Source: a virus
DNA length: 64,000 bases
Strand: one strand, 5' to 3'
Virus record (IMG/VR): IMGVR_UViG_3300036859_000424
In this document: positions 42,840-60,378 of the stretch, in pieces
Numbering within the stretch: the first letter of the stretch is position 1
How the letters are laid out: every line of letters begins with the position of its first letter
Notes under the pieces: model-generated
Seen by the model: only the letters and a program-made list of their open reading frames with translations
Database searches by the model: none
What the model was told of the DNA's origin: nothing
Program-made: the position numbers and the translations under genes

Positions 42840-45800
42840 CTAGCTCGACTTGTGCTCAACGACGTACAGCCGGCAGAACTCGGAGACGACCGACACCGCC
42901 CGGAGGTAAATCGTCGGGGTCCCGCTCATGATGAAGACGCGCAGCCGGACGACATGGGCACCGACACTCAGGCCGCTCAGGTAGATCGTCCCACTGCCGG
43001 AGAACGGGTTGCCGTTGCTGCCGGCCGTCTGGATGTAATCGGCGCCGACCTGCACGGCGATGGCGTTGTCGACCAGCAGTTGAACCATCGCACCGTGATT
43101 GACCGACCCCTGGACGACCATCGCGCCAGTGACGGCGAATCCGATGACGCTGCTAGCCGACTCAACCGTGAACGCCTGATCGGCCATGATGTTGTAGAAA
43201 CTGCCGGTGGTGGTGACCGTACCGCTGAAGACGTCGGTCAGCAGTTGGAAGCCCAGCCGTGACTGCACGACAGCATTCGGCGCGATCTCGGCCCGTTCGA
43301 CCTGGTGGTAGCCCAGCACGCCGGCGCTGTTGACCCCGAAGGCCCGCGAATTGGCCCCCTTCGCCAGCCGGCCCGGCGCCCCGGCCACGCCACCGACGAT
43401 GATGTCGTCGGGCGTCGTCATCGGGTTGGTCATGTCGCCCGGATCGCCCTTTGACGCGACCACCTGCCAGTAGGCGATCTGGGTGGCTGGATTCTGATTG
43501 GTGCCGTTCTGTAGGGCCAGGTAGGTCGACCCATCGTAGGTGACGGTGTCGTTCGTGACGTAGGCGGTCGCGGCCGACCAGGCCCCGCGCCAGGTCCAGG
43601 TCGAGACCGACGTCTGGTACTCGATCACGTCGAGACGGAGATACTCGGTCGCAATCGTGGTCGGCCGGAGGTAGATCGTGTTGCTGCCGACGGTGAAGTA
43701 GACCTGGACCCGAACGGTGTGGGTACCGGCGGCGAGACCACTGACCCAGACGTCGCCGGCGGCTGACAGGTTGATCGTCTGCATATTTGTCGACGTGTAG
43801 GCCGCTTCGATCGGGTGCCGCGACGTTCCATCGAGCAGCAGGTTGACAGCGGCCCCCTGAAGCGCCCCCGTGTTCGCCCACTGCATCCCGGTCGCCACCG
43901 CGAGCTTGACGAGACTTTGTGGACCACTAACGGTAAAGTTGAAGTCAGATGTGATGTTCTGGGGGCCAGACCCGAACGGGGTCCCGTTATGGAGATCGGT
44001 GGGCTGGTTGTAGGCCAACCGCTGGACCGGCGCCCCCGGCGATCCCCTGGCCGCCACCTGCTGCCAGTAGGACGGGCTGGACGCCGGCGGCTGGTTGGTC
44101 CCCGCTAGCAGCGCAAGCCAGGTTGACCCGTCGTCGGTGACGGCATCGTTGGCGTTGTAGGCCGTCCCCGACCCCCAGGCGCCGCGCCAGGTCCAGTCCG
44201 ACGCTGACGTCAGGAACTCCGTGATCTGGATGCGCAGGAACTCTTCGCCTGGGCGGGTGCCGGGGCGGAAGTACATCGCCGTGCTGCCGTGGGCGACGGC
44301 CCGGACCAGCACCGTGTGGGTACCGGCTGAGAGCCCGCTGATGCGCAGCGGGCCGACCCCGGCGAACGGGTTGCCGTACTGGTTGGTGGCATTGTTGGCG
44401 TCCTGACCCAGGTTGTAGACCGTGCTGTCGATCAAAATATGGATCGTGGCGCCGGTCCCGGCATTGACCCCGCCGACCAGCATCGATCCCGAGATGGCGA
44501 TCTCGACGATGTTGGCCGGGCCGGCCACCGTGAAATTCTGCTGACCGTGCAGGGCGTAGGCGACCCCATCAGCGGCGCCGCCGCCCAGCGCATCACTGGT
44601 GGCCTGGTAGTTCAGTCGCATGATCGGGGCACCCGGCGTCCCTGGATCGCCCTGGGTGCCGCCACCAGACAGCCGGGTCACCTGGACCGACAGGAATTCG
44701 GTCGCGTTGGCCCGGCAGTAGGCTGTCGCCGCTTCGTCGGCGTACAACTGGACCTTGACGGTGTGGCTGCCTTCGTCCAGGTGGTACAGCTTGATCGGGC
44801 CGGCCCCGGCCAGCGGGTTGGCCTGCATGCCAGCGACCTGAAGGACGTCGCCGCCTAGCCGGTAGGTCTCAGTGCTGTCGATCATGACCCGGGCTGCCAT
44901 CGACAGCACATCGACGGCCGAGCCGACCTTGACGGCGCCCCGGACGGCGATCTCGGTGCACTGGTCGGCGACGTCGACCGTGAACGTCTGGGCCGGGCAG
45001 AGATCGGTCCAGGTCGAATCGGCCATTGCGAGGCCGTCCTCGGCCACCCCATCCGGGTTGTAGTCCAGCAGCGGGATCGGCTGGCCCGGCTCGCCGATCG
45101 GTCCCTGCGGCCCTTCCGGACCCTCCGGACCGGCCGGGCCGGGATCGCCCTGGATGCCCGGCACACCCTGGATACCTTGCGGTCCCGGGTCACCCTGGGG
45201 GCCGGGATCGCCCTGCGGCCCGACAGCTCCAGTGGCACCGGTCGCACCAGTGCTGCCCCGGAGTGCGAACGGCAGCCAGAAGTCGGGGTTGGCTTCCGGC
45301 TCTTGATTGGTGTTGTTGGCGACCGCGATGTAGGTCGACCCTTCAAACTCGGCCAGGTCGTCAATCAGGTAGGCGGTGCTGTCAAACCAGGCGCCCCGCC
45401 AGCGCGGGCCGTCCTCGCCGTCAGCCCCGGCCGGCCCCGGATCGCCCTCCGGCCCCTGGGCGCCAGCAGCGCCAGTTGGCCCCTGGGGACCAGCGTCGCC
45501 CTGCGCCGCCAACAGATCCCAGAACAGTGGCCCCAGCTCCGGATCGACCCCAGTGCTGGACCCGGTCGCGATATAGCTGGACCCGTTCCGCTCAACGGCG
45601 TCGTCAACCAGGTATTCGGTCGCGATGTCCCAGGCGCCGCGCCAGACCAGCCCGGTCCCAGATCCGCCGCCGCCATCGACGCCCTTGCGGGCCAGCACCT
45701 GCCAGTGGATCTCGCCGTCGGTGGCCGGGTTGTCGCCGGTCGTCGGCTGGATCGCCACGTAGCTCGATCCCTGGTATTCGACAACGTCGTTCGGGATGTA

Positions 45801-47270
45801 GCTGGTCCCAACACCCCAGACGCCGCGCCAGACCAGCCCAGGCGGCCCCTGCGGGCCGATCGGACCTGGTACCGTGCTGTCGGCGCCTGGCGGCCCGGTC
45901 TCGCCGTTGGCGCCAACCGGACCCTGGGGACCGGTCGGTCCGATCGGGCCGGTGTCACCCTGGGGTCCCTGGGGGCCGGCTGGGCCGATCGGCCCCTGTG
46001 GCCCGGTTACCCCGGTCGCGCCGGCCGGCCCGGTTGGGCCGGTCGCACCCTGGGGACCCTCCGGCCCAACCGGCCCCTGCGGCCCAACCGGCCCCTGCGG
46101 CCCGGTATCACCTTCGGGACCGGCGACCCCCTGGGGGCCTTGCGGGCCGGCCGGGCCTGCGCTACCCTGGGCACCGGGTGCCCCCGCCGGGCCTGCTGGG
46201 CCTTGCGGACCTGCTGGGCCAGGGTCCCCCTGGGGACCGGCCGGGCCAGTGGCTCCGGCCGGTCCTGTCGCCCCAGGGGCGCCCTGGGGACCCTCCGGTC
46301 CCATTGCGCCCGTTGCGCCCGTTGCACCGGTCGCGCCAGCCGGTCCGGTCGGTCCCGCTGGTCCTGGCACGGTGCTGTCCGCCCCAGGGGCACCCTGGGG
46401 ACCGGCCGGACCGACCGGACCGGCCGGCCCGGCTACCCCCTGCGGCCCCTGGTCCCCCTGCTCGCCCTGGACACCCTGTAGCCCCTGGGGGCCGACAGCG
46501 CCAGTCGCGCCAGTCGCGCCAGTCGCCCCGGTTGCCCCGGTCGGGCCGGGGTCGCCCTGGACACCTTGTGGCCCCTGAACGCCGATCGGGCCGGCCGGGC
46601 CTTGCTCGCCCTGGGGGCCGGCGGGACCGGCCGGACCGGCGGGACCGACCGGTCCCTGGGGACCAGGGACCGTGCTGTCCGCGCCGGCCGGCCCGGCTGA
46701 CCCCAGGGGGCCGGTATCGCCGGTATCACCCTTCGGACCCTGGGCACCCTGGAGACCGGCGGGACCCTGGGGACCGGGCTCACCTTCGGCGCCCTGGGGG
46801 CCGGTCGCACCCGTAGCACCCGTGGCGCCGGTGGCCCCGGGGGCACCCTGGGGACCCTGGGGACCGGCTGGCCCGGCCGGTCCCTGGGGACCCGTGGCAC
46901 CAGGTGCGCCGTCGGCACCGGCCGGGCCAGCCGCCCCCTGCGGCCCCGGTTCACCTTCCGGACCCATCGGCCCCTGCGGACCTTGCGGCCCCGGCGCGCC
47001 CTGGGGACCTGGCGGACCTGGTACCGTCGACGGTAGGCCGGGCTCGCCTTGCGGCCCGATCTCGCCCTGGGGGCCTTCGGGACCGGGTATGCCCTGGGGG
47101 CCAGGGGGTCCGACCGACCCGGGCGGCCCCATCACCCCGAACTGGGCGACGGTGACCGGGCCTTCGTTGACGACCTCGACGCTGACCGTGCTGCCGTCCG
47201 GTTCGGTCACGACGACCTGGGTGATGATCGGCGGCGAGATGATAACGATCGTGTCGGTCTCAGGGCTCAT
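42840..47270 (-). CDS. collagen-like long tail fibre (1476 aa)
   Basis: About 434-aa Gly-X-Y tract, repeated WRGxW...Y...D.V...GS.Y modules, four paralogous beta-rich domains. Confidence 0.95.
45837..47138 (-). repeat. 9-bp-period Gly-X-Y collagen repeat tract
   Basis: [12 protein letters not shown] triplets with a few STVP interruptions. Confidence 0.95.
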
Positions 47271-47617
47271 TTCGTCGCCTCCGGGCCGATCTCAGCCGTG
47301 CCTTGCAGCAGCCGGATGACCCTGCCGTCAGGTGCGACAAGCTCCAGGTCGTAGACCCCGGCACCGAAGTCGATCAGCGCCGTCTGGGCGGCCGTCATGG
47401 TGATGTCCAGCAGGTTCGGGGCGGTGATGACGATCCCGCCGCCAGGGTCGCTGTCCAGCGAGACGATCGGTTCGTCCGATCGGTACCGCTCGCGGATCAT
47501 CATCCGGGCGCTGTACCCGACGATGTTGATCGGATCGCCGTTCTCCTGGGTCCAGGCGACCTGACGCTGCCAGGTCGCCCCCTGCTCGACGTAGATGTTC
47601 AGCACCCCGGCGGCCAT
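47267..47617 (-). CDS. baseplate/fibre-attachment Ig-like protein
   Basis: [10 protein letters not shown]...GYSARMMIR...GVYDLEL...RLLQG. Confidence 0.75.
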
Positions 47618-48033
47618 CAGATCGGCACCTCAGTCATCACGATGTCGCCATTTGAGAAGACGATCTGTTCATTGCCCGGCCCACCGGTGACGACCGGTTC
47701 CCAGCGGGTCGACGTCGCCCCCCGCTTCGGCTGCCACTGCTGATCGGCCGCGTCCCAGGTGTAGACGTCGCCGTGGGTCGGCACGGCTTCCGACAGCGGG
47801 CGGCCCCGAAACCCGGCGACGATCGTCTCGATGATCCGCCCGGTGACGTCGCCCAGCAGCGGCGGGACGCTGTGGACCCGGATCGCGCCGCCAGGGGTCG
47901 CGATGTCGCTTTGGACACGCAGCGCCATCGCTTCGGCGACCTCGCGGTTTTTGGCCAGCATCCGCCCGAACATCTGGGTCAGCCGACGTCTCGACGCCGG
48001 GGAGATCCGCGTGCGCACTGGCGGAACGGTCAT
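47617..48033 (-). CDS. minor tail protein
   Basis: GFRGRPL...P..GDVYTWD...WQP fibre-type motif. Confidence 0.7.
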   Translation of the reverse strand: MTVPPVRTRISPASRRRLTQMFGRMLAKNREVAEAMALRVQSDIATPGGAIRVHSVPPLLGDVTGRIIETIVAGFRGRPLSEAVPTHGDVYTWDAADQQWQPKRGATSTRWEPVVTGGPGNEQIVFSNGDIVMTEVPI

Positions 48034-50432: not shown

Positions 50433-50800
50433 CAGACCGGCCCCGGATCGCCGTCGGACAGCAGTGCCCATTCGGCCTGGAACATATGAAACTCGCGGCG
50501 GGGCGTCATGGTGTGACCGGTCAGGCCCAGCAGGACGGCGGTCTCGTAGGTGGTGCCGTCGATGACCAGGGCCGACGTCTGACCCAGCGACGCCATGAAC
50601 CGGCCGGCGTACTGGGGCAGCAGCAGGATCGCCGCCCGGTATCTCGGGGTCGTCGTCCCGCCCAGGTCGATGACGTTGAAGGTGCTGTAGGGGACGTGTC
50701 GCTCGCCCTGGAGAAGCTCGCCAGGGTCTGGCATCGACACACTGTCCTGGACTGCCGGACCAAACGGGACCCCGCCCCAGAAGTAGTCATGCAGGGCCAT
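50432..50800 (-). CDS. distal tail protein (Dit-like)
   Basis: Position directly after the tape measure gene. Confidence 0.65.
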   Translation of the reverse strand: MALHDYFWGGVPFGPAVQDSVSMPDPGELLQGERHVPYSTFNVIDLGGTTTPRYRAAILLLPQYAGRFMASLGQTSALVIDGTTYETAVLLGLTGHTMTPRREFHMFQAEWALLSDGDPGPV

Positions 50801-53800
50801 CTACAGGGCTCCCGGTAGGATGCGTGTGACGGGTGACAGCGACGTCTGCTGGGTGACGTCCAGGATGTTCACGATCGCGTCGACCGTCTGGTCGGTGACC
50901 ATCTGGGCGAACGCCTGGGGGTCGGTGATCCCGTCGGCCGAGATCCGCTGTTCGATGTGGATGTTGACCGGACCTCTCGACTGGGCAGCCTGGGGATCTG
51001 AAGGTCGCGGACTCGCCGCTCGTGCCACGGCGTCCTGCATGGCCGCTGCTGGTAGGACCGCCCCGGCCTGGGCCTGGGGTATCCAGTCGCCGCCGCCAAA
51101 CGCGATCGGCGGGGTCGGGGAGAACGGCATGCACTGGCCGAACGCCGTCGACCAGCGGGTGCCCGGCGGACACTGCGGGGTCGGCTGGGGGGTCGGGGTC
51201 GGGGCAGGCCCGGTCCCGCCCGGGTCCGGCCCTTCCCGACGACGACCGCCGCCTTCACCACCGCCGCCTGGCGCCGTGGCCTGCGGGATCGGCGGGGTCC
51301 AGCCGTTCATCGCCGCAACCCAGCCGTTCTGCCAGTTGATGGCCGCGTTGCTGCCCAGGGTCGTGAAGCCCGGGTCGTACTCAGCCAGCCGCGCCTGAAC
51401 GCTGAACATCGTGGCGTCGATCGCCGCGATGATCGCCGCCTGGCCGCTGGACCAGCCGTTGGCCCAGGCAGCAGCGGCGGCCTGCCCACTCCCTTCAAAA
51501 TGGGCAGGCAGGCCCGGCAGCCAGGTGTCGATCATCTCTTCAAACGGCCGCCGCTGGACCGCGTACAGGTCGGCCGCGTCGTAGGCGGTCGTGAACGCGG
51601 CCGCGCTGTCAGACGCGGCCGTCCGGTACTGGTCCGCCAGGCCCGGCAGCCAGCCGATCATCTCTTCGTACGGGAACCTCAGTACCCCGTACAGGTCGGC
51701 CGCTTCGTAGGCGGCCCGGAAGGCGCCGGTACTGTCGGTGGCGGCCTGGGTGTAGAAGGCCGGGGTGCCGGGCAGCCAGGTGTACAGGAACTCTTCAAAC
51801 GGCGCCCGGAGGATCGCCCCCAGGTCGACGCTGCTGTAGCCGGCCTGCCACTGGGCGGCCGCTTCCGCGCCGGTCGCGGCGTAGAACGGCGGGACACCCG
51901 GCAGCCAGGTGTACAGAAACTCTTCAAACGGCGCGCGCAGGGTGGCCGACAGGTCCGGCGGACTGAACGCCTCTTCCATCGCCGCCCGGATGAACGGCCC
52001 CTGGTACTGGATCTGGAGAATGAAGCCCTGGGCGACGTCGTAGGCCAGCGCTTCGGTCCGGCGGGACGGCGAGTCGGTCTGCCAGACGTCCTTCTCGACG
52101 TAGACCGCGCCCCGCTCGCCCCAGTCCCGGATCGCCTCCGGGCCGGTGTTCTCGGTACGCCAGAAATTATTCCAGCCGTCGCGGATGGCGGCCGTCAGGT
52201 CGGTCAGCCACTGCACCCAGCCGCCGTCGCCCGATGGTAGCTGGAACGGCGACCTGGTGCCCTCCGGCACCGGGGTCTCGTCGGGGCCGGGCCGGCTCCG
52301 GATCTGAAGCTCGCGCTGGATGCGCTCGATCTCTCGGGTGATCGCGTCGATCCGGGCCTGGGATTCCGACAGCTCCAGGTCAAGCTGAATCCGCCGCGCT
52401 TCGATCGGCGCCATCCTGGTCGCCGCCAGCGCTTCAAGCTCGGCGATCTCCTGACGCAGGGGCAGCGCCCGGATCTGCTGGGTCAGTTGATCGATCTTCT
52501 GGGCGTTCTCCAGAATCGCCAGGACGTAGTCGGCGATGACCCGGTCACGGGCCGCCGTGGCGGCGGCGGTGCGGTCCTGGAGATCCAGGGTCCGCTGGCG
52601 CAGCTCCAGCGCCCGGATCTCCAGTGTGCGGGCTTCCCGAAGTCGTTCTAGCTGGCGGTTGTTCTGCTCCTCTTCCTCGCGGCGCTGACGTTCGCGTTCT
52701 TCCTTCTGGCGCTGCTGGTAGGCCCGTTCTTCGGCGCGCAGTTGGGCGTCTTCGGCCCGCTGGGCGGCTTTTGCTGCCGCTTCTTCGTCGCGGAGACGGC
52801 GGTCTTCCTCGCGTTGAAGCCGGCGGTCTTCGGTTTCGGCGGCCCGGACGCGGGCCTCTTCCTCACGGGTGAGACGGCGGTCTTCGGCTTCGGCGGCCCG
52901 GAGCCGGGCCTGGTCGGCCTGTTCTGCGGCGCGGGCGGCCTGTTCAGCGTCCCGGATGGTCCGTTCTTCTTCGCGCTCAGCGGCGCGGGCGGCCTGTTCT
53001 TCCTGCCGGAGCCGTTCCTGATCGGCACGATCAGCAGCAGCAGCGGACCGTTCGGCCTCGCGGATGGCGCGTTCTTCTTCGCGCTGTAGCTCGCGCTCGC
53101 GTTTCTCTTGCTCGCGGATCTGGGCCTGTTCTTGCTTGGTGGCTTCCCGGTCGGCCCGTTCAAGCTCGCGGACCTGGCGGTCCTCTTCGCGCTGGCGCTC
53201 GCGTTCGGCCCGGTCTTCGGCCCGGTTGGCGTCTTCAAGGGCTTGCCTGGCCTGCTGGTGGGCAAGCTCTTGCCGGTCGCGCTGCTCGCGGTAGGCGCGG
53301 TCTTCGGCGGCCGCCCGTCGCTCAAGCTCGGCGATCTCTTCCTGGCGCTGGAACGACCGTTCCTCACGGGCGTTCCTTTCCTCTTCGATCCGCTGTTGAA
53401 GGGCTTCGCGTTGGCGTTCATAGGCTTGCTGTTCCTGGACGACGGCCAGCCGGCGGCGGGCGTCGCGCCATTCTCTCGACGTCCTGGCTTCGGCGACCGC
53501 AAGCTGCGCGTCTTCCAGGGTCCTGGCCCGCTGACGCTCGCGGTTGACCCGTTCCAGGGCCTCCAGCTCCCGTTCAGCCGCCGACGGCCCGCGCTCTCGG
53601 TTCCGTTCCTGGCGGTCGGCTTCCCGAAGCTGGTCGATCCGGTCCCGGTACTCTTGCTGCCTGGCCTGGTGGGCGCGGTCGGCCGCGTCGCGCTCGCGCC
53701 GGTACTGGCGTTCGGCTTCGTCGGCTAGCTCGCGGGCGGCTTCCCTGGCCAGGTCGTACGCTTCCCGCCTGGCCCGGATCTGATCGTTCAGGTTTTCGAT

Positions 53801-56575
53801 CGCCGCGCGGCGTTCTTCCTGGTGGGCCTGGATGATCTCGCGAGCCGCTTCCAGCGCGATCTGGCGGGCTTCCTGACGCGCCCGGATCTCTTCACGCAGG
53901 CCGTCCAGCGACGCCTGGCGGGCGGCCTGGTTGGCCCGGATCTCTTCGCGGATCGCGTCCAGCCGCTGCTGCCTGGCTTCCTGGCTGGCCCGGACTTCCT
54001 CTCTCAGCGCTTCCAGGCGGGCCTGCCGGCTCGCCTGGGCGGCCTGGATCTCTTCGCGGATCGCTTCGATCCGGGTCTGGCGGACTTCCTGGGCGGCCCG
54101 GACTTCCTCTCTCAGCGCTTCCAGGCGCTGCTGGCGCACCTCCTGGGCGGCCTGGATCTCGGCCCGGAGCGCTTCGATCCGTTCCTGGCGGGCCGTCTGG
54201 ATCTGTTCGATCTCTTCGCGCCTGGCGCGGATGCGTTCCTGTTCGTTGTCCAGTTCGGCCTGGCGGACCCGGCGGCCGTTCTCCTGCTCGCGCTGGGCGA
54301 TCTCTTCGTTGATCTCGGCCCGGCGGTGGCGGATCGCCAGCGCTTCCTCTTCAAAGTCCAGCAGGGCCTGGGCTTCGGCGATGTCGGCCCGCTGGCTGAC
54401 CGGCCCCTGGGCTTGCTGGGCGCGATCGGCGATCCGGGCCTGCTCGCGCTGGGCCTCCAGGATCGCGGCCGCGCGGGCGTTCATCGCCTGGGTCGGTGCT
54501 TCGATCGCCGCGATCTGGGCCTTCAGGACGACGATCTGGGCTTCGTACTCACTGGTGACCCGCTTAGCGGCGGCCTGGTTTTCGTTGATCTGGCGCCCGA
54601 TCTCGGCGTGGGCGGCCTTGACCTGGCCCAGCGCGCCCTGCTGGGCGGCCAGATCGATCTGCAACTGGCGCTGTTCTTCCTGGCGCTGGGCGCGGGCCGC
54701 CCGGATCTGCTGTTCCTGCTCCGGGGTGTACGCCGTCGTCGGGGCGAACGGGATCGGCGGGCGGGTCGGGGCCGCTTCCTCGCGGGCCTGGCGCTGCTCG
54801 CGACGGGTTTGGGCTAGGCCCTGAAGGCCGCCACCAGTCAGCCCCAGCAGGTCGCGCAGCCCCGCCAGGCTACTGGCCAACCCGGACGTGATGGCCAGGA
54901 ACTTCTGGCCTTCAACGACGGCGGTCCCGATCCCTTCCGCCAGCAGCTCCCATCCCTGGCGGTTGGCGGACAGGACGGTGTTCGCTTCCTGAAGGCCGCC
55001 CAGCAGCGCTTCAAAGAAGCCGCGCCCCAGGGCGCCCTGGATGCCGGCAGCGGTCGACTGAAGCTGGGCAAGCTGGGCGTCGAAACCCTGGGCCGACTTG
55101 ACCAGCAGCTCGGTCGACCCGCCGGCCGCTTCGACCGCCTTGCGGTAGAGCTCCATCCCACTGAAGCCCTGCTGGGCAAGCTGACGGACCGTCCCGATCG
55201 CGATGTTGGTGCGGTCTTCAAAGGCCCGGAAGTCGCCGGAGATGAGCTGTTGAATGGCGGCCTGCATCGCCTCGAAGCCCAGCTCCGGGTGCGCGGAGGC
55301 CAGGGCGACCGTTAGCTGGGTCAGCTCCTTCATCCGCTCGACGTCGCCGCCGCTGACCCGCAGGAAGGTGGCGCCGGCCGCGATCTCCTGTTCGTCGCCA
55401 AACGGCGAGATCGCGGCCTGCTGGCGTAGCTCTTGGATCGCCTTCTGCCCGGCCGAGACCGATCCGGTGTAGTGCTCAAAGGTGCGGGTCTGCTGTTCCA
55501 GCACCGCGTTGTAGCGGATGCTGGCGGCGATCCCGTCGATCGTCGCCCGGGTGACCGCCTGAATGGCGATCGCCGCCGCCGTCGCCGCCAATTGGGCGCC
55601 GGCCAGCCCGCCACCGATCAGCAGGCCGCCGCCGAGACCAGACCCGGAGATCGCGCCCCGGAGCCCACCGGACAGGGCGGCCCGGGGGACCGACTCGCGT
55701 TCTTCGGCGCGCCGACGCTGTTCCTCGCGGCGGGCTTCCTGTTCGATCTCGCGCTGCTCGCGGCGGCGCTGCTGTTCTCTTCGGACCGCCGCCCGGATCT
55801 CTTCGTCGTGCTGGCGCTGGTTGTGGCGCAGGATCTCTTCGGTCGATCGCCGACGGTCCCTAGCGGCTTCGGCTTCGGCCCGCTGGCTGGCCCGGATCCC
55901 GGCCTGTTCTTCGGCGTACAGCCGCCGGTTGGCGGCCATGACCTCTTCGACCTGGCGCCGCCGATCCTGTGCCCTGGACGCTTCCTCGCGGGCCGCTTCG
56001 GCCCTGGCGCGCGCGACCGCCCGTTCACCTTCGGCGATGATCCGGTTGGTCGCCGCCGCTTCCTGGCGGATCTGCTGCTGGGCGCGTTGGGCGTTGCGGA
56101 ATTCTTCGGTCTCGACCCCAATCCCGCCGCGTTCGGCCCGCCGGTACTCCCGTTCCGCCGCGTCGCTGCCCGGGGCGTTCCGGCGAGAGGCGCGCAGTTC
56201 GGCGGCGGCCGCCTGTTCGATCCGGCGCAGCCGGCGGGCGGCGATCCGCTCCTCTTCGATCTCGACGGCCCTGGCCAGCCGCAGCGCCGCCGTGTACGCC
56301 GCTTCATCCGCCCGGATCTTCGCGGCCGCCGCCCGTTCAGCAGCGGCCGCCTGGCGGGCGGTCTGGGTCTCGATCGCCGTGGTCGCGGCCTGGGCCTGCC
56401 CGGCCAGCCCACCGCCGGCGGCACCCCCCAGGTTCGGCCCCCGGATCCGGTCGAACGACTGCTGGACCTGGGCGGTGGCCGCGACGACCCGGGCGACGAA
56501 CGCCTGAAGGGCAGCATCGGCCTGGGTCGTATCGAACCCGACACTGAACCCGAAGCCGCCCAACGGAATCGACAC
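50801..56575 (-). CDS. tape measure protein (1924 aa)
   Basis: Longest gene, follows the chaperones; AALEQQTRTFEHYTGS...SPF TMP motif; charged helical repeats. Confidence 0.95.
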   Translation of the reverse strand: MSIPLGGFGFSVGFDTTQADAALQAFVARVVAATAQVQQSFDRIRGPNLGGAAGGGLAGQAQAATTAIETQTARQAAAAERAAAAKIRADEAAYTAALRLARAVEIEEERIAARRLRRIEQAAAAELRASRRNAPGSDAAEREYRRAERGGIGVETEEFRNAQRAQQQIRQEAAATNRIIAEGERAVARARAEAAREEASRAQDRRRQVEEVMAANRRLYAEEQAGIRASQRAEAEAARDRRRSTEEILRHNQRQHDEEIRAAVRREQQRRREQREIEQEARREEQRRRAEERESVPRAALSGGLRGAISGSGLGGGLLIGGGLAGAQLAATAAAIAIQAVTRATIDGIAASIRYNAVLEQQTRTFEHYTGSVSAGQKAIQELRQQAAISPFGDEQEIAAGATFLRVSGGDVERMKELTQLTVALASAHPELGFEAMQAAIQQLISGDFRAFEDRTNIAIGTVRQLAQQGFSGMELYRKAVEAAGGSTELLVKSAQGFDAQLAQLQSTAAGIQGALGRGFFEALLGGLQEANTVLSANRQGWELLAEGIGTAVVEGQKFLAITSGLASSLAGLRDLLGLTGGGLQGLAQTRREQRQAREEAAPTRPPIPFAPTTAYTPEQEQQIRAARAQRQEEQRQLQIDLAAQQGALGQVKAAHAEIGRQINENQAAAKRVTSEYEAQIVVLKAQIAAIEAPTQAMNARAAAILEAQREQARIADRAQQAQGPVSQRADIAEAQALLDFEEEALAIRHRRAEINEEIAQREQENGRRVRQAELDNEQERIRARREEIEQIQTARQERIEALRAEIQAAQEVRQQRLEALREEVRAAQEVRQTRIEAIREEIQAAQASRQARLEALREEVRASQEARQQRLDAIREEIRANQAARQASLDGLREEIRARQEARQIALEAAREIIQAHQEERRAAIENLNDQIRARREAYDLAREAARELADEAERQYRRERDAADRAHQARQQEYRDRIDQLREADRQERNRERGPSAAERELEALERVNRERQRARTLEDAQLAVAEARTSREWRDARRRLAVVQEQQAYERQREALQQRIEEERNAREERSFQRQEEIAELERRAAAEDRAYREQRDRQELAHQQARQALEDANRAEDRAERERQREEDRQVRELERADREATKQEQAQIREQEKRERELQREEERAIREAERSAAAADRADQERLRQEEQAARAAEREEERTIRDAEQAARAAEQADQARLRAAEAEDRRLTREEEARVRAAETEDRRLQREEDRRLRDEEAAAKAAQRAEDAQLRAEERAYQQRQKEERERQRREEEEQNNRQLERLREARTLEIRALELRQRTLDLQDRTAAATAARDRVIADYVLAILENAQKIDQLTQQIRALPLRQEIAELEALAATRMAPIEARRIQLDLELSESQARIDAITREIERIQRELQIRSRPGPDETPVPEGTRSPFQLPSGDGGWVQWLTDLTAAIRDGWNNFWRTENTGPEAIRDWGERGAVYVEKDVWQTDSPSRRTEALAYDVAQGFILQIQYQGPFIRAAMEEAFSPPDLSATLRAPFEEFLYTWLPGVPPFYAATGAEAAAQWQAGYSSVDLGAILRAPFEEFLYTWLPGTPAFYTQAATDSTGAFRAAYEAADLYGVLRFPYEEMIGWLPGLADQYRTAASDSAAAFTTAYDAADLYAVQRRPFEEMIDTWLPGLPAHFEGSGQAAAAAWANGWSSGQAAIIAAIDATMFSVQARLAEYDPGFTTLGSNAAINWQNGWVAAMNGWTPPIPQATAPGGGGEGGGRRREGPDPGGTGPAPTPTPQPTPQCPPGTRWSTAFGQCMPFSPTPPIAFGGGDWIPQAQAGAVLPAAAMQDAVARAASPRPSDPQAAQSRGPVNIHIEQRISADGITDPQAFAQMVTDQTVDAIVNILDVTQQTSLSPVTRILPGAL
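53780..54200 (-). repeat. 54-bp (18-aa) tandem repeats in the tape measure gene
   Basis: About 8 units of L/I-E-A-L-R-E-E-I-R-A-x-Q-x-x-R-Q-x-R; an identical stretch of over 30 bp recurs 108 bp apart. Confidence 0.85.
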
Positions 56576-56967
56576 TATCTCGCCCTCGCCCGGTGCTGAT
56601 CAGCCATCCGACACATCTCGACCCAGCGGTCCCACCCGTCTTCCACGGCGTTCTGGCCCGGCCGCTTCGGCAGGTCGACCAGGTTGTCCGGCCGATCCGC
56701 CACCTGGACGGTCGGATCGAAGAACCGGGGGACGGCCAGGCTGGGGAAGAAGTCGGCCGGGCCGAAGGGCAGGCCGTTCGACTTCTTGGCACCGCCCAAT
56801 GACGCCACCAGGGTCGCTAGCTCGCCGAAGCGCAGGTCTTCGGCCCGTTCCAGCTCAAGCCGACGATCCGCGAGCGCGCGGAACTCCCGTGGGGTCAGGT
56901 CCCAGAACCGGGCTTCAGAAAGGCCCAGGTCCACGATCCCGACCGTCCACAGGTCGATCCACCGCAC
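56575..56967 (-). CDS. tail assembly chaperone C-terminal extension (gpGT-like, reached by -1 frameshift)
   Basis: FWDLTPREF motif; joined to the upstream ORF via C CCA AAC. Confidence 0.85.
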   Translation of the reverse strand: MRWIDLWTVGIVDLGLSEARFWDLTPREFRALADRRLELERAEDLRFGELATLVASLGGAKKSNGLPFGPADFFPSLAVPRFFDPTVQVADRPDNLVDLPKRPGQNAVEDGWDRWVEMCRMADQHRARAR

Positions 56968-57473
56968 TACGCGGCGCTGGCGTTTGGGCCGCCACCTCCG
57001 GTCGCGGAAGCTGTGGCCGGGTCGGCCGGCGGCTGGTTACGGCCCCAGCACAGGTCCAGGCAGTGCAGGATGTAGTAGATGTTCCCGAACTCCAGCCCAG
57101 GCATCCGCTCGACCTGATCCAGCGTCAGCGTGTCGTCTTCGTCCAGCAGGGCGACCCACAGCAGGGTCGTGATCACGGCCAGCTTGGGTGGCCAGTCGAA
57201 GATGATCTTCTCATCCCAGGCGTTGATCCCGGTCCGCTCCTCGAACATCTTCAGCGCCCAGAACGGCAGCCGCAGGTGGCGGGTCTTGTCAAGCTCGATC
57301 GGCACCGGCTCGATCAGCCTGGGCTTGCGGTGGTTCAGCGGTTCGGCGACCAGGGCCGGTTTCGGCGCCACCGGGGTCGCGGCCGCCGCAGCGGCCGCCG
57401 CCTGCTCCTCGACCTTGATGCTCTCGATCGCCTGCGTGATCGGACTGGCGTTGTCGCGGGTGGTCTCTTCCAT
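56967..57473 (-). CDS. tail assembly chaperone (gpG-like)
   Basis: IELDKTRHLRLPFWALKMFEERTG; lies between major tail and TMP genes. Confidence 0.85.
   Translation of the reverse strand: MEETTRDNASPITQAIESIKVEEQAAAAAAAATPVAPKPALVAEPLNHRKPRLIEPVPIELDKTRHLRLPFWALKMFEERTGINAWDEKIIFDWPPKLAVITTLLWVALLDEDDTLTLDQVERMPGLEFGNIYYILHCLDLCWGRNQPPADPATASATGGGGPNASAA
56982..56988 (-). other. programmed -1 ribosomal frameshift heptamer CCCAAAC
   Basis: X XXY YYZ phasing is correct; the -1 frame reads PKRQRRVVRWID into the next ORF. Confidence 0.8.
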
Positions 57474-57547
57474 CGTGGCTGGGCCGGCGGGACGGCCGCC
57501 GGCCGCTCCTTGAGACGTCGTGCCCGGAGATCGATCGGGATCGGCTG

Positions 57548-57583
57548 CCTGAATGTCAGGCTTACCCTGAATGTCAGGCTTAC
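57548..57583. repeat. perfect 18-bp tandem duplication, each unit palindromic
   Basis: CCTGAATGTCAGGCTTAC x2 (CCTGA-ATG-TCAGG), overlapping the major tail stop codon. Confidence 0.9.
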
Positions 57584-58026
57584 GACGACCCGTAGGTCGG
57601 CGCCGACGTCGGCTGTAGCTGCACCGCCGCCTGGTAGACGTTGTCGACCGGGGCGGTCGGGCGGAAGCTGGACACCGTCGCCGAGAAGTGGACCACCACC
57701 GGTGGGACGACCGCGCTGTTGTAGTGGACCTGGAAATTCGTCCGTTCGCCGGTCAACTGCCGTTGCAGCAGGCCGGTCACGTGGTTGTGGGTCGGGTGGT
57801 TCGGCAGGTAGTTGATGTCGAACCCGACGGCCGGCAGGTCGTTCAGGTTGTTGACGTACGACCGGAAGAAGGCCGGGTTGTCGTGGGTCGACGTGTCGAT
57901 CCGGGGCGACTCGATCTGGGGGACCGGGATCGATCGAAGCTCAGCGACGTTCGTGAAGACCTCCGGGTCTTCGCCGTCCCCCATCTTCAGCAGCGTCCCA
58001 AATGCGTGGATAGCCAGGTCGGTCAC
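57580..58026 (-). CDS. major tail tube protein
   Basis: GTLLKMGDGEDPEVFTNVAEL...IDTSTHD...FDINYLP...HFSATVSSF. Confidence 0.9.
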   Translation of the reverse strand: MTDLAIHAFGTLLKMGDGEDPEVFTNVAELRSIPVPQIESPRIDTSTHDNPAFFRSYVNNLNDLPAVGFDINYLPNHPTHNHVTGLLQRQLTGERTNFQVHYNSAVVPPVVVHFSATVSSFRPTAPVDNVYQAAVQLQPTSAPTYGSS

Positions 58027-58034
58027 GGTTCAGC

Positions 58035-58241
58035 CTAACTGTCGGCGTGCCCGCGCGAGGCAACGTGCTGCCTCACGATCTCTTCATTGACGTGATCGAA
58101 GGGACAGCTCTCGCACTGGTAGACGGTCACCTGGTGCGGTGGCTTGCCCCACGGCTTCTCGTAATAGCCGTCGTGCCGCCGGCTCGCCCGGGGCTGGGCG
58201 GCGGTCGGCTTCGGGGTTGGGGTTGGGGTCTCATCAGCCAT
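58035..58241 (-). CDS. small C2H2 zinc-finger-like protein
   Basis: YQCESCPFDHVNEEIVRQHVASRGH. Confidence 0.65.
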   Translation of the reverse strand: MADETPTPTPKPTAAQPRASRRHDGYYEKPWGKPPHQVTVYQCESCPFDHVNEEIVRQHVASRGHADS

Positions 58242-59457
58242 CGGTACCTCCGACCGTGGTGGGAATGCCGGCCTGACGGGCCGTGTAGTCGGCCACCAGG
58301 TGGGACCAGGCGGCCGGCCAGCGGTGGGCGTTGGCCTGCAAGCTGTGAAGGCTTTCGACCTTCTGCAACAGGCGGTCGGCGAAGTGGCGGCGCCGTGCGC
58401 GATCCTCGATCAGCCATGACAGGGAAGCCTCCCAGTCGTCGGCGTTCGTACAGATCAGCCCATCTTCGCCATGATCGATCAGGTGCCGGTAGACGGTCGG
58501 GGACGCCAGCACGGCCGACCCGGCTGCCGCCCCTTCCAGCGCCTTGATCGGCGACTTGCTGGCGTTGAACGTGTTCGCTTCCAGGGGGCAGCACAGGATG
58601 TCGATCTCGGCCATCAGCCCCGGGTACCGTTCGATCGTCTCTTTCGGCCGCAGGGTCAGGCGATCGGCGTCGACCGACCGCAGCAGGACCCCCAGCGGGT
58701 AGCCGCCGACCAGGAAGCGGACGTCGGGGTAGCGGTTGGCGATCCGGGTCCAGGCGACCGCCAGATGACGGGCGTCTTCGTCCGGGCGGTTACCGCCGGC
58801 CCAGCCGATCGTCAGCGGACGATCCGGGTCCAGGGCGCCCCGCTTCGGGCCGTACTTCTCGACCCCAGCCCGGAACCGGGGCAGGTCGATCGCGTTCGGG
58901 ACGACGATGACCGGCTTGTCGGTGAACCGACTGACGACCTCAGCCAGCCTGGGGGTCGCCACGGTCACCCCGTCCGAGAGCGCCAGTGGCAGAATCCTGG
59001 CCTGCCGCTCGCGCTCCATCAACTCCTGGGGCTTATTCGCCTGGGCCGGGTCGCCGGTCACCCGGATCCGGTCGATGCTCTCCTCGCTGTACAGGTCGTC
59101 GTCGGTCTCGTAGATGACGGTCGTACCCAGGCCGTGCATCAGCGCAACCCAGCGATCCGCGACCCAGTCCTGCTCCGGCGCCCATTCCAGGCGCGCCATC
59201 ACCACGGCGTCGGCGTCTCGAAGCCAGTCGGCCGATCGGGCGTCGCCGACGGCGCACCAGCCGACCGGGTAGCCCCGCCGGTGCAGCTCAGAGAACGGCT
59301 GTGCGATCCGCCAGGCGGTACATCCCGCCATCATCTCAGGGTGGACCAGCGCCAGGACGCGCGGGCTCGTCGTGCCGACCGCTAGATCCCCGATCCTCTC
59401 GGCTGCGCCCCGCTGCGCGGCGCGAATATCGACTGCTTCGACATCTCTCCAGGTCAT
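58234..59457 (-). CDS. GT4-family (GT-B) glycosyltransferase
   Basis: IYETDDDL...VTVATPRL...VVPNAID...IGWAGG...SKSPIKALEGAAAG..VLASP. Confidence 0.9.
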   Translation of the reverse strand: MTWRDVEAVDIRAAQRGAAERIGDLAVGTTSPRVLALVHPEMMAGCTAWRIAQPFSELHRRGYPVGWCAVGDARSADWLRDADAVVMARLEWAPEQDWVADRWVALMHGLGTTVIYETDDDLYSEESIDRIRVTGDPAQANKPQELMERERQARILPLALSDGVTVATPRLAEVVSRFTDKPVIVVPNAIDLPRFRAGVEKYGPKRGALDPDRPLTIGWAGGNRPDEDARHLAVAWTRIANRYPDVRFLVGGYPLGVLLRSVDADRLTLRPKETIERYPGLMAEIDILCCPLEANTFNASKSPIKALEGAAAGSAVLASPTVYRHLIDHGEDGLICTNADDWEASLSWLIEDRARRRHFADRLLQKVESLHSLQANAHRWPAAWSHLVADYTARQAGIPTTVGGTDG

Positions 59458-59960
59458 CACGTCCCCCCGCCCGGCTTCGTCGCCCACAGGTACAGGTCGC
59501 CCCGCTGCTTGTGGGTCTCCAGGCGCTGGATGGCCATCCCGTCGACCCAGTCGTGAAGCTCGCCGGGGCGGACGTTCAGGTACCACTCGCTGGGCCGGAG
59601 CCGGTTGCCGTCGATCCCGGAGTGCGGGGGCCGGGGCGGCATCGCGCAGGTCACGATCAGGTGGCCGCCCGGGGCCAGCATCGCGATCATGTTCTCGACC
59701 AGCAGGGCGGCTGCCCGCGCGTGCTCGAGCACTTCGCAGCAGACGACCAGGTCGACCCGGGCCAGCGGCCGCCAGGTGGAAGCGTCAGCGACGACGTTGA
59801 CCCCCGGGCCAGGGATAAGGTCCAGGCCGGTGTAGGCGGTCCCCGGGAATAGCTCGCGGACCGACCCGTTGATGTCGCGGCTGCCGATCTCGACAGCAGT
59901 CTTGACCCCGACCAGCACCGTAGCGACGCTGGCGACGAACGCGTACGCTTCCGCGTGCAC
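59457..59960 (-). CDS. class I SAM-dependent methyltransferase
   Basis: VEIGSRDING...YTGLD...VVADA...DLVVCCEVLEH...LAPGGHLIVT. Confidence 0.9.
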   Translation of the reverse strand: MHAEAYAFVASVATVLVGVKTAVEIGSRDINGSVRELFPGTAYTGLDLIPGPGVNVVADASTWRPLARVDLVVCCEVLEHARAAALLVENMIAMLAPGGHLIVTCAMPPRPPHSGIDGNRLRPSEWYLNVRPGELHDWVDGMAIQRLETHKQRGDLYLWATKPGGGT

Positions 59961-60352
59961 TAGTCGACCCCCATCCAGCATTCGTAGTTGCAGCCGACCA
60001 AGCTCCGGCCGCTGGAATCACCGGTCATCGCGAACGGCTCAGACATCGCGTAGATCGCCTTGTAGGTCCGGCCGTTGACGCTGGCGATCGCACCACCCCG
60101 GATCGCTACCAGCAGGTCGCGGATGTCTCTGGCGCGGGTCCGGGCGGCCTGGGGGTCCCGGTCTCGGACGATGACCTGGACATGCGGGTAGCGCCGCTCG
60201 CCGCCGTTGTGGACCCAGGCGGCCGGGCGGCCGGCGGTGTCGGCGATCGCCGCGCAGACGTCCGGCTGCTCCGGCAGCCGGCCCATCACCAGGGTCGTGC
60301 CCAGGGTGCCCAGGCCGGCCGTGACCAGCAGGTCCGCGATGTCTTCCGGCAT
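59960..60352 (-). CDS. tail terminator / minor capsid 3-like neck protein
   Basis: DIADLL...GLGTLG...GRLPEQPD...PHVQVIVR. Confidence 0.8.
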   Translation of the reverse strand: MPEDIADLLVTAGLGTLGTTLVMGRLPEQPDVCAAIADTAGRPAAWVHNGGERRYPHVQVIVRDRDPQAARTRARDIRDLLVAIRGGAIASVNGRTYKAIYAMSEPFAMTGDSSGRSLVGCNYECWMGVD

Positions 60353-60378
60353 CACAGCCTCCCTGCTAGAGTTGCGGC

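What the first reader, a model, noticed from the sequence alone, without database searches (positions are those of the whole stretch)
42840..59960. Candidate virion glycan shield: glycosyltransferase + methyltransferase in the tail operon and a 434-aa Thr-containing collagen fibre
SEEN: a GT4 glycosyltransferase and a SAM methyltransferase are translationally coupled between the tail terminator and major tail genes. The fibre has about 145 Gly-X-Y triplets with many GAT/GPT/GDT units and STVP kinks (about 120 nm at 0.29 nm per residue). KNOWN: some mycobacteriophages glycosylate virion proteins with structural-operon glycosyltransferases; Bacillus anthracis BclA collagen is O-glycosylated with O-methylated sugars; mimivirus fibrils are also glycosylated. 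INFERENCE: this phage may decorate its collagen fibre or tail tube with methylated glycans for stability, adhesion or receptor/immune masking.
Basis: partly seen in the sequence, partly recalled or inferred. Interest (0 to 1): 0.7.

Follow-up and report, generated by a model that had tools for sequence, protein, structure and literature searches.

The report
Phage tail-tube sugar-coating gene cassette
An uncultivated soil phage carries a sugar-transferase and a methyltransferase gene wedged between its tail-terminator and tail-tube genes. They most likely attach a methylated sugar to the last two serines of the tail-tube protein, not to the collagen-like fibre; this kind of decoration is already known from mycobacteriophages.

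Summary
On the minus strand, the tail terminator, a 167-aa SAM methyltransferase, a 407-aa GT-B (GT4-like) glycosyltransferase, a 68-aa zinc-ribbon gene and the 148-aa major tail protein overlap or abut. The fibre is a 1476-aa protein with a 436-aa collagen block (140 Gly-X-Y triplets, four STVP kinks; 175 triplets and 30 Thr at Y in all).

In soil-metagenome relatives the GT-B stays beside the tail-tube gene while its partner varies: methyltransferase, GT2, or an aminotransferase/acetyltransferase/GT2 set. Relatives without the GT exist. The tail-tube protein ends in Ser-Ser in 14 of 14 GT-bearing relatives, with both serine codon families in use, and in 0 of 8 GT-less ones. Tree-corrected support for this link is weak.

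The methyltransferase family has at least 524 IMG/VR loci. In 33 of the best 80, the order is methyltransferase, GT-B, then a different major-tail family.

Nothing ties the enzymes to collagen: one GT-bearing relative has no collagen run in its tail-fibre region.

Best reading (about 0.55): late-expressed O-glycosylation of the tail tube. This is a new variant of the Che8/Corndog kind, with unrelated enzymes. This scan has reported similar cassettes in over 100 other genomes.

The parts
59960..60355 (-). Tail terminator gene (131 aa). It forms the upstream border of the cassette.
   Evidence: PF12691 at E 1.3e-12. Its TAG stop overlaps the methyltransferase start.
59457..59960 (-). Small class-I SAM methyltransferase (167 aa; GTG start at 59960). 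Proposed to methylate the glycan.
   Evidence: Pfam Methyltransf_23/12/11 and phrog_32762. The AF2 model has pLDDT 96 and a Rossmann fold; the best PDB match is NodS, followed by other small-molecule and sugar methyltransferases. The family alignment has the invariant residues H2, E24, G26, N31, G32, D47, E76, E79, H80, R110, H113 and S114. There are at least 524 IMG/VR loci, and 46 of the best 80 have a GT-B nearby.
58234..59457 (-). GT-B (GT4-like / PF13524-like) glycosyltransferase (407 aa). Proposed to be the priming protein O-glycosyltransferase.
   Evidence: PF13692, PF13524 and PF00534. AF2 pLDDT is 91 and Foldseek matches MshA, PimA, BshA and PglA. At least 195 homologues, nearly all from metagenomes and phage-sized contigs. 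It lies next to the tail-tube gene in L019, L021, L022, L023, L024 and L036.
58035..58241 (-). 68-aa C2H2/zinc-ribbon-like gene with a TPTPTPKPT N-terminus. It is a backbone gene, not part of the cassette.
   Evidence: Homologues lie between the terminator and the tail-tube gene in both GT-bearing relatives (L022, L021, L019) and GT-less ones (L029, L028). No Pfam or PHROG family matched.
57580..58026 (-). Major tail (tube) protein, 148 aa, ending ...LQPTSAPTYGSS. Proposed acceptor; the two terminal Ser codons lie at 57583-57588.
   Evidence: phrog_158 'major tail protein' at E 2e-12 and weak PF16461. The C-terminus ends in SS in 14/14 GT-bearing and 0/8 GT-less relatives. The Ser codons switch between TCN and AGY among GT-bearing lineages.
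50801..57473 (-). Tail assembly chaperones (56967-57473 and 56575-56967) and the tape measure protein (50801-56575, 1924 aa). These are context for the late tail operon.
   Evidence: PF09550 Phage_TAC_6; ORF list.
42840..47270 (-). 1476-aa tail fibre. It has a collagen block at 45831-47138 (residues 45-480), further collagen runs, three CBM5/12 modules and repeated beta-rich modules. It is a possible but unsupported acceptor.
   Evidence: Collagen PF01391 at E 5.5e-66 and CBM_5_12 at E 2.5e-19; triplet count.

Best explanation
The methyltransferase and the GT-B glycosyltransferase form a late-expressed virion-glycosylation cassette, translated together with the tail genes.

Proposed mechanism:
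1. The GT-B takes a sugar from a host nucleotide-sugar and O-links it to one or both serines at the extreme C-terminus of the tail-tube protein (...APTYGSS).
2. The small SAM methyltransferase then methylates that sugar.
3. The tail tube therefore carries a methylated mono- or short glycan on each of its many subunits.

In related phages the same priming GT-B is paired with other tailoring enzymes, which would give different glycans on the same protein tag. The partners are GT2, or a sugar aminotransferase with an acetyltransferase and two GT2 genes.

What is shown and what is inferred:
- Shown: gene order, start/stop overlaps, enzyme folds, conservation of the cassette's position, and the co-variation with the Ser-Ser end.
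- Inferred: that the substrate is a protein, that it is the tail tube, which residue is used, which sugar is added, and that the methyl group goes on the sugar.
For: (a) Tight packing with late genes. The junction overlaps are TAGTG, TGATG and 8 nt, and no internal promoter-like or terminator-like site was found.

(b) Conserved position with a variable partner:
- L022: terminator, methyltransferase, GT-B, Zn-ribbon, tail tube.
- L021, L023, L024: GT2, GT-B, tail tube.
- L019: Zn-ribbon, GT2, GT-B, tail tube.
- L036: GT2, GNAT acetyltransferase, GT2, DegT aminotransferase, GT-B, terminator, tail tube.

(c) A natural experiment. Relatives L028-L035 and L039/L040 have the same head-to-tail synteny but no GT; the GT profile finds nothing in them at E <= 0.01. 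The tail-tube protein ends in Ser-Ser in 14/14 GT-bearing rows, seven with the GT seen in the same locus and the rest inferred. It ends in Ser-Ser in none of the 8 GT-less lineages, which end TA, AT, AT, AA, ST, AA, QS and LS. GT-bearing rows only 47-52% identical to the window keep APTYGSS, while GT-less rows at 63-67% identity have lost it. Among GT-bearing lineages the Ser codons alternate between TCN and AGY, which indicates purifying selection on Ser.

(d) The methyltransferase family is a glyco-cassette component. Of the 80 best IMG/VR loci, 33 read methyltransferase, GT-B (PF13524), then a major tail protein of a different family (phrog_1407/10528). Six are methyltransferase-GT fusions, and GT2 lies upstream in 13-15 of 72.

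(e) More distant homologues of the GT lie in head modules, in the order portal/MuF, GT, protease, HK97 capsid. This mirrors Corndog gp35-38, which lie between portal and protease.

(f) The GT family is almost absent from 185,579 species genomes. The only two close hits are on MAG contigs; the longer one (L041) has phage gene content, and the other is a 2.2-kb fragment whose context was not examined.

(g) Precedent: mycobacteriophages glycosylate capsid and tail-tube proteins with their own GTs next to an O-methyltransferase (PMC11600133, PMC12363180, both citing Freeman et al. 2023). Corndog's putative capsid and tail-tube proteins also end in Ser (...VGS and ...KGDS).
Against: - There is no direct evidence that any protein is glycosylated.
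- The Ser-Ser/GT link is perfect in raw counts but weak once relatedness is allowed for. The tree needs 4 coincident changes, and only 1 independent pair lies on well-supported branches.
- Eight of the GT-bearing rows were assigned only because the GT and the tail-tube protein report the same longest-contig length.
- APTYG- is conserved in some GT-less relatives too, so most of the tail motif is structural.
- The second major-tail family that follows methyltransferase-GT pairs in IMG/VR has no Ser-rich C-terminus, so the acceptor rule does not generalise.
- The capsid protein of this phage has no Ser/Thr tail, unlike the two-target mycobacteriophage case.
- The GT's structural neighbours act on small molecules and lipids (MshA, PimA, BshA), not on proteins.
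- The methyltransferase has an atypical glycine loop (EIGSRxING) and a generic fold, so its substrate cannot be read off.
Confidence: 0.55

Rival explanations
1. The enzymes O-glycosylate Thr residues in the Gly-X-Thr triplets of the collagen-like tail fibre, as in Bacillus anthracis BclA. This would give a methylated glycan sheath on a fibre of about 120 nm.
For: The fibre has 30 Thr at the Y position, including runs of GAT triplets. BclA-type collagen is O-glycosylated on Thr with methylated sugars (recalled from memory, not checked here). The fibre gene is in the same late operon.
Against: - The fibre gene lies 11-16 kb from the enzymes, whereas the enzymes abut the tail-tube gene.
- The GT-bearing relative L027 has no collagen run of 8 or more triplets anywhere in the 10 kb that covers its fibre genes.
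- None of the other GT-bearing loci, nor five partial IMG/VR records, has a collagen match.
- Only one Lys sits at the Y position, so hydroxylysine-type collagen glycosylation of the animal/mimivirus kind is not possible.
Confidence: 0.1
2. The GT and methyltransferase act on a host envelope component (cell-wall glycopolymer, lipid-linked precursor or receptor) late in infection. The purpose could be to stop progeny from re-adsorbing to debris or to exclude other phages. On this view their place in the tail operon is only a convenient expression site.
For: The nearest structures are envelope or small-molecule GT4 enzymes (MshA, PimA, PglA, BshA). PHROGs files the GT under 'moron, auxiliary metabolic gene and host takeover', and JGI auto-annotation calls its homologues 'involved in cell wall biosynthesis'. 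No membrane or protein-binding feature argues against this.
Against: - The cassette has no promoter or terminator of its own and overlaps its neighbours.
- Cassettes of this kind lie beside tail-tube or capsid genes in several unrelated phage backbones.
- Presence of the GT tracks a two-residue change in the adjacent structural protein.
Confidence: 0.15
3. The GT glycosylates a virion protein, but the methyltransferase methylates a tail protein directly (on N, O or a carboxyl group) rather than the sugar.
For: Methylation of a mycobacteriophage tail protein by a host enzyme is needed for infectivity (PMC13445384). The methyltransferase fold is generic, and its best match, NodS, is an N-methyltransferase. 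A conserved TCAxPPRxPHS loop follows strand 4, where amino-methyltransferases carry their catalytic motif (my reading of the alignment).
Against: - In relatives the methyltransferase slot is filled by a GT2 or by sugar-tailoring enzymes, as expected for a glycan-building step.
- In IMG/VR the methyltransferase is fused to or abuts GT-B genes, and GT2 is a frequent upstream neighbour.
- Corndog pairs its GTs with a sugar-type (TylF) O-methyltransferase.
Confidence: 0.12
4. The enzymes modify phage DNA, by glycosylating and methylating bases, to evade restriction.
For: Phage GT-B enzymes that glucosylate DNA exist (T4 beta-glucosyltransferase; from memory). The early region encodes a dCTP deaminase-like protein.
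Against: - The genes lie in the late tail operon.
- A separate N6/N4 DNA methyltransferase is encoded in the early arm.
- No thymidylate-synthase-like hydroxymethylase was found. That search tool also missed the known GT, so this negative is weak.
- All structural neighbours are GT4-type enzymes, not DNA glucosyltransferases.
Confidence: 0.04

Closest known systems
Mycobacteriophage virion glycosylation systems: Corndog gp35-38 and Che8 (gp110 is named by PMC12363180) (Freeman et al. 2023, Cell Host Microbe 31:1216; not held here, cited through PMC11600133 and PMC12363180)
   Same: Phage-encoded glycosyltransferase(s) together with a methyltransferase lie inside the virion structural operon. 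The capsid and tail-tube subunits are the reported acceptors. Corndog's putative capsid and tail-tube proteins end in Ser, as this tail-tube protein does.
   Different: - The enzymes are unrelated. Corndog has a TylF-type O-methyltransferase and GT-A (GT2/GT25-like) transferases. Here there is a NodS-like 167-aa methyltransferase and a GT-B.
- tblastn of the window's GT and methyltransferase against 50,697 phage records found no mycobacteriophage.
- The cassette lies between the terminator and the tail tube, not between portal and protease.
- There is only one GT, and the capsid has no Ser tail.
- The host is unknown and the source is soil, so antibody shielding cannot be the selective reason.
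Annotated but uncharacterised GT/methyltransferase clusters of Pontimonas phage phiPsal1 and Streptomyces phages Zuko and KimJongPhill
   Same: Homologous small methyltransferase (32-35% identity) next to GT genes. In phiPsal1 the order is capsid, group-1 GT, methyltransferase, GT2, neck. Zuko has GT, methyltransferase, GT at its right end, plus UDP-glucose dehydrogenase and a GT beside the terminase.
   Different: The GTs are only 25-27% identical to the window's or not detectably related. The cassettes sit at other positions, and no function has been shown for them either.
Bacillus anthracis BclA collagen-like exosporium glycoprotein (from memory)
   Same: A collagen-like Gly-X-Thr repeat protein on a particle surface. 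BclA's Thr residues carry O-glycans with methylated sugars.
   Different: The enzymes here have no detectable link to the collagen gene, and GT-bearing relatives lack collagen fibres. The fibre's dominant triplets are GPQ and GPA rather than GPT.
PF13524 (Glyco_trans_1_2, CgeB-like) GT-B family and GT4 enzymes MshA/PimA/BshA
   Same: A two-Rossmann-domain GT-B fold. A conserved C-terminal-domain Lys/Glu cluster (K301, K305, E308) lies where GT4 enzymes bind the nucleotide-sugar.
   Different: Sequence identity is 12-19%. The first Glu of the GT4 E-X7-E motif appears to be replaced (Ser300 by my reading of the alignment). The DDD119-121 triad and R89/W92 are invariant and specific to this phage family. 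The known members act on small molecules or lipids.

Membership tests
Phage virion O-glycosylation cassette (Che8/Corndog kind) | Phage-encoded glycosyltransferase gene(s) embedded in, and co-expressed with, the virion structural operon | tested here: met
   The GT lies between the terminator and the tail-tube gene and overlaps its neighbours' start/stop codons. No internal promoter-like or terminator-like site was found. The same position is kept in six relatives.
Phage virion O-glycosylation cassette (Che8/Corndog kind) | Enzymes homologous to the characterised ones (Corndog gp35 TylF O-methyltransferase; gp36-38 and Che8 gp110 GT-A transferases) | tested here: not met
   Corndog gp35 matches PF05711 TylF, and gp37/gp38 match GT-A families. 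The window's enzymes match PF13692/PF13524 and Methyltransf_23. The tblastn hit lists contain no mycobacteriophage.
Phage virion O-glycosylation cassette (Che8/Corndog kind) | Acceptor Ser/Thr at the C-terminus of the capsid and tail-tube subunits | tested here: inconclusive
   The tail tube ends ...APTYGSS. Ser-Ser is present in 14/14 GT-bearing and 0/8 GT-less relatives, with mixed Ser codon families, but only one independent contrast lies on supported branches. The capsid protein ends ...AIVVLDV, with no Ser/Thr tail.
Phage virion O-glycosylation cassette (Che8/Corndog kind) | Glycan demonstrated on virion proteins | not testable with these tools
   The phage is uncultivated and known only from soil metagenomes.
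GT-B fold, GT4-like glycosyltransferase | Two Rossmann-like domains, with structural similarity to GT4 enzymes | tested here: met
   AF2 pLDDT 91.3. Foldseek against PDB and Swiss-Prot: MshA, PimA, BshA and PglA at E 1e-13 to 1e-16 and TM 0.55-0.66.
GT-B fold, GT4-like glycosyltransferase | E-X7-E motif in the C-terminal domain | tested here: inconclusive
   E308 is invariant, but the residue eight positions before it is Ser300. K301 and K305 are invariant instead. No structural superposition was inspected residue by residue.
Class I SAM-dependent methyltransferase | Seven-stranded Rossmann fold with an acidic residue at the end of strand 2 | tested here: met
   AF2 pLDDT 96.2. Foldseek finds NodS, TehB, Trm9 and EvdMO1 at E about 1e-8 to 1e-7. 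D47 is invariant.
Class I SAM-dependent methyltransferase | Glycine-rich motif I (E/D-x-G-x-G-x-G) | tested here: inconclusive
   The family has the variant V-x-E-I-G-S-R-x-I-N-G, with G26, N31 and G32 invariant. SAM binding was not modelled.
BclA-type glycosylated collagen-like surface protein | Collagen triple-helix repeats rich in Gly-X-Thr | tested here: met
   175 triplets, 30 with Thr at the Y position; PF01391 at E 5.5e-66.
BclA-type glycosylated collagen-like surface protein | A dedicated glycosylation enzyme that co-occurs with the collagen gene | tested here: not met
   The GT-bearing relative L027 has no collagen run in its fibre region. Five partial IMG/VR records with GT homologues have no PF01391 match.

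The most novel reading that the evidence does not exclude
A widespread, modular tail-tube tagging system in environmental (soil) phages. A phage-specific GT-B would recognise a short C-terminal tag (APTYGSS) on the tail-tube subunit. Interchangeable tailoring genes (methyltransferase, GT2, or aminotransferase plus acetyltransferase) would then diversify the glycan, much as serotype loci do. Lineages that lose the cassette lose the Ser-Ser tag, and some have a ~100-aa insertion in the tube protein. Because these phages live in soil, the glycan coat would serve something other than antibody evasion, for example protease resistance, anti-aggregation, or adhesion to or release from matrix and cell-wall debris.
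Probability: 0.3. Interest if true: 0.65.

Novelty: new variant of a known kind. Interest (0 to 1): 0.42.

Why it matters
Virion glycosylation has been demonstrated only in a few mycobacteriophages. By my recollection of its abstract, that study reported little evidence for it in other phages.

Here an unrelated enzyme pair occupies an equivalent place in a soil phage, and its methyltransferase family has at least 524 loci in IMG/VR, many directly upstream of major tail genes. If these cassettes do glycosylate tail tubes, sugar-coated phage tails are common in the environment.

The APTYGSS/GT-B pair would also give a compact, testable enzyme-and-tag system: three genes co-expressed in a laboratory host. 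It could be used to study why phages decorate their particles, and possibly to glyco-engineer them.

The collagen-glycan picture that made the finding attractive is not supported.

Tried and rejected
- DNA-level search of the cassette against 50,697 phage records found no match. The phage is remote from isolates.
- Sequence search of the PDB with the GT found nothing. The methyltransferase gave only NodS at E 0.014, and the tail-tube profile gave only a non-significant 'Antigen A' hit at E 0.39.
- Complex prediction on the GT with the tail-tube protein gave no verdict (score 0.00, controls not run). This is not evidence either way.
- The genome search on the phage's own genome with PF00303 and PF00535 found nothing. 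The same tool also missed the known GT with PF13692, so these negatives carry little weight.
- The search for related loci with the tail-tube alignment found nothing in genome contigs and little in viral contigs. No prophage relative or host clue was obtained.
- The Freeman 2023 paper could not be read. Its details are taken from citing papers and from memory.
- Sequencing-run search: no RNA holder is listed, only two soil DNA runs that may be the source. This gives no evidence on expression.
- I considered the S/T/G-rich C-tail of the 128-aa head protein that follows the capsid gene as a possible acceptor. I rejected it because a GT-less relative (L029) has an even more Ser-rich tail and GT-bearing relatives (L019, L021) have none.
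- I considered the zinc-ribbon ORF with its TPTPTP N-terminus as part of the cassette. I rejected this because it is also present in GT-less relatives.
Surface exposure of its C-terminus is therefore untested.

Full report
**What the window is.** The window is the reverse strand of bases 14731-78730 of a complete 86,416-bp virus record with direct terminal repeats. It has 68% G+C, and the same DNA is held by two soil-metagenome runs. Early genes run on the plus strand up to about 32.7 kb. The late structural genes run on the minus strand from 64000 downwards. No phage isolate resembles it at the DNA level.

**Check of the observation.** The minus-strand order is as follows:
- tail terminator, 59960-60355 (PF12691)
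- 167-aa methyltransferase, 59457-59960 (Methyltransf_23/12/11, phrog_32762)
- 407-aa glycosyltransferase, 58234-59457 (PF13692, PF13524, phrog_7162)
- 68-aa zinc-ribbon ORF, 58035-58241
- 148-aa major tail protein, 57580-58026 (phrog_158)
- two tail assembly chaperones, then a 1924-aa tape measure protein
- ORFs of 122, 813, 138 and 116 aa
- the 1476-aa fibre, 42840-47270

The junctions read TAGTG, TGATG and an 8-nt overlap. The region has no promoter-like or terminator-like site. The methyltransferase start at 59960 gives the N-terminus MHAEA, which fits the family consensus MHxEA.

The fibre's N-terminal collagen block (residues 45-480) has 140 Gly-X-Y triplets and four STVP interruptions. 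The whole protein has 175 triplets, with Thr at the Y position 30 times and Lys once. It also has three CBM5/12 modules. A 434-aa plus-strand ORF at 45177-46481 is an antisense artefact.

**The enzymes.**
- The GT model (pLDDT 91) is a GT-B fold. It is closest to the GT4 enzymes MshA, PimA, BshA and PglA, at 12-19% identity.
- Its family has its own invariant residues: R50, R89, W92, D119-D121, R224, D228, K301, K305 and E308. By my reading it lacks the first Glu of the GT4 E-X7-E motif.
- The methyltransferase model (pLDDT 96) is a minimal class-I Rossmann fold. It is closest to NodS and other small-molecule or sugar methyltransferases. It has an unusual EIGSRxING loop and a conserved TCAxPPRxPHS segment.
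- Neither fold tells the substrate.

**Relatives supply the main evidence.** The GT has at least 195 homologues, almost all on metagenomic contigs of phage size. It is nearly absent from 185,579 species genomes. The two close hits there are on MAG contigs. The longer one (L041) reads terminase, portal, GT2, GT2, GT-B, protease, HK97 capsid; the other is a 2.2-kb fragment whose context I did not examine.

Syntenic relatives of this phage share the order Mu-type portal, S49 protease, gpE-type capsid, terminator, tail tube. They keep the GT-B beside the tail-tube gene but change its partner:
- L022: methyltransferase
- L019, L021, L023, L024: GT2
- L036: two GT2 genes, a GNAT acetyltransferase and a DegT-type sugar aminotransferase

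That pattern is what a glycan-building locus with a constant priming enzyme looks like. The zinc-ribbon ORF is a backbone gene, because it is also present in relatives without the cassette.

**A natural experiment.** Other syntenic relatives (L028, L029, L030, L031/32, L033, L034, L035, and the more distant L039/40) have no GT anywhere between portal and tape measure. The GT profile finds nothing in them at E <= 0.01.
- The tail-tube protein ends ...APTYGSS or a near variant ending in Ser-Ser in all 14 GT-bearing rows. In seven of these the GT was seen in the same locus.
- It ends TA, AT, AT, AA, ST, AA, QS or LS in the GT-less lineages.
- GT-bearing proteins only 47-52% identical to the window keep the tag, while GT-less ones at 63-67% identity have lost it.
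- The two Ser codons switch between TCN and AGY among GT-bearing lineages, which points to selection for serine.
- On a maximum-likelihood tree built without the last three residues, both traits need four changes and these coincide. The tree is poorly resolved, and only one independent contrast lies on supported branches.

The link is therefore suggestive, not proven. It agrees with the published statement that mycobacteriophage glycans lie on capsid and tail-tube subunits (PMC11600133, PMC12363180). By my recollection of the Freeman abstract, they lie at the C-termini. Corndog's putative capsid and tail-tube proteins end ...VGS and ...KGDS.

**The methyltransferase family.** IMG/VR holds at least 524 loci. 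Among the best 80:
- 46 have a GT-B nearby.
- 33 read methyltransferase, GT-B (PF13524 type, not an orthologue of the window's GT), then a ~132-aa major tail protein of another family (phrog_1407/10528).
- Six are methyltransferase-GT fusions.
- The upstream neighbour is GT2 in 13-15 of 72, an HK97 capsid gene in 6 and a tail terminator in 3.

phiPsal1 (capsid, GT, methyltransferase, GT2, neck) and Streptomyces phage Zuko carry homologous methyltransferases in GT clusters. The methyltransferase is thus a regular component of phage glycosylation cassettes, often directly upstream of tail-tube genes. This favours a sugar-tailoring role over direct protein methylation. Methylation of a tail protein by a host enzyme has a precedent (PMC13445384), so that alternative remains open.

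**The collagen fibre.** Nothing connects it to the enzymes beyond its Thr content. The GT-bearing relative L027 has no collagen run in the 10 kb that holds its fibre genes. No other fetched GT locus has one, and neither do five partial IMG/VR records. Collagen glycosylation via hydroxylysine is excluded by the single Lys at Y.

**Other rivals.**
- DNA modification is unlikely. The genes lie in the late operon, a separate N6/N4 DNA methyltransferase is encoded in the early arm, and all structural neighbours are GT4-like. The failure to find a hydroxymethylase is weak, because that tool also missed the known GT.
- Modification of the host envelope cannot be excluded. It does not explain the positional conservation or the Ser-Ser co-variation.

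**Comparison with what is known.** The system works like the Che8/Corndog virion-glycosylation cassettes but is not homologous to them. Corndog gp35 is a TylF O-methyltransferase and gp37-38 are GT-A enzymes, lying between portal and protease. I rate it a new variant of a known kind.

This scan has reported analogous GT/methyltransferase islands in structural operons of more than 100 other genomes, none with look-alike sequences. One earlier report also proposed a methylated sugar on serines of a major tail protein.

**Verdict.** Confidence in tail-tube O-glycosylation is about 0.55. Interest is moderate.

Noticed in passing
L028:8001-8762, L031:1190-1951, L034:1452-2213, L035:1405-2160: Four GT-less relatives have a 251-253-aa tail-tube protein. 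It keeps the same N- and C-terminal parts but has an insertion of about 100 aa after roughly residue 20. This could be a protein decoration domain in lineages that lack the glycosylation cassette. Pfam recognises only the tube part (residues 128-244).
   Followed up: partly
window 58035-58241 (-): A small C2H2/zinc-ribbon-like gene (Y-x-C-x2-C-P-[FY]-D ... H-x5-H) is conserved between the tail terminator and the tail-tube gene, in relatives both with and without the GT. It matches no Pfam or PHROG family. Its role in a tail operon is unexplained.
   Followed up: partly
L036:2192-9096: A relative carries a larger sugar locus just upstream of its tail terminator: GT2, GNAT acetyltransferase, GT2, DegT/DnrJ/EryC1 aminotransferase and GT-B. 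This implies an acetamido-sugar glycan.
   Followed up: no
L084:1898-2965, L092:1219-2802, L094:5001-6641, L103:5001-6590, L105:5001-6590, L133:4153-5394: In these IMG/VR phages the small methyltransferase lies in one long ORF of about 355-546 aa. In L092, L094, L103 and L105 a GT-B profile hit lies in the same ORF. In L084 the GT hit is in the next ORF, and in L133 no GT hit was found.
   Followed up: partly
L003:5283-7376: In a distant GT-bearing phage, a 697-aa ORF in the head module matches an intein splicing domain and a C-terminal ADP-ribosyltransferase exoenzyme domain (PF03496, E 1e-16). It lies at the position held by the MuF-like gene in related loci.
   Followed up: no
window 60379-61008 (+): An HNH endonuclease gene lies antisense between the gp10-like neck gene and the tail terminator, interrupting the otherwise minus-strand late operon.
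   Followed up: no
window 45177-46481 (+) and other frames over 45000-47300: Long spurious ORFs, including one of exactly 434 aa, are open on the strand opposite the collagen repeat because of its GC-rich triplet periodicity. Only the minus-strand frame has Pfam support.
   Followed up: yes
window 22886-24187 (+), 27643-28404 (+), 19513-20310 (+), 34533-36080 (-), 37820-40015 (-): Other genes of the phage: an N6/N4 DNA methyltransferase, a dCTP deaminase-like protein, a Rad52-family recombinase, a GH25 lysin, and a 731-aa protein in the late (minus-strand) arm with two discoidin (F5/8 type C) domains.
   Followed up: no
own genome G000 (tool behaviour): the genome search on the phage's own genome with PF13692 returned no candidate. 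hmmscan of the translated gene against the same family gives E 7e-11. Negative family searches with that tool on this genome are therefore unreliable.
   Followed up: yes
own genome C1:14161-14547 (outside the window) and L029:5584-5943: The small head-module protein after the capsid gene has a Ser/Thr/Gly-rich C-tail. In the GT-less relative L029 it ends in a run of about 20 Ser. These tails do not track presence of the GT.
   Followed up: partly
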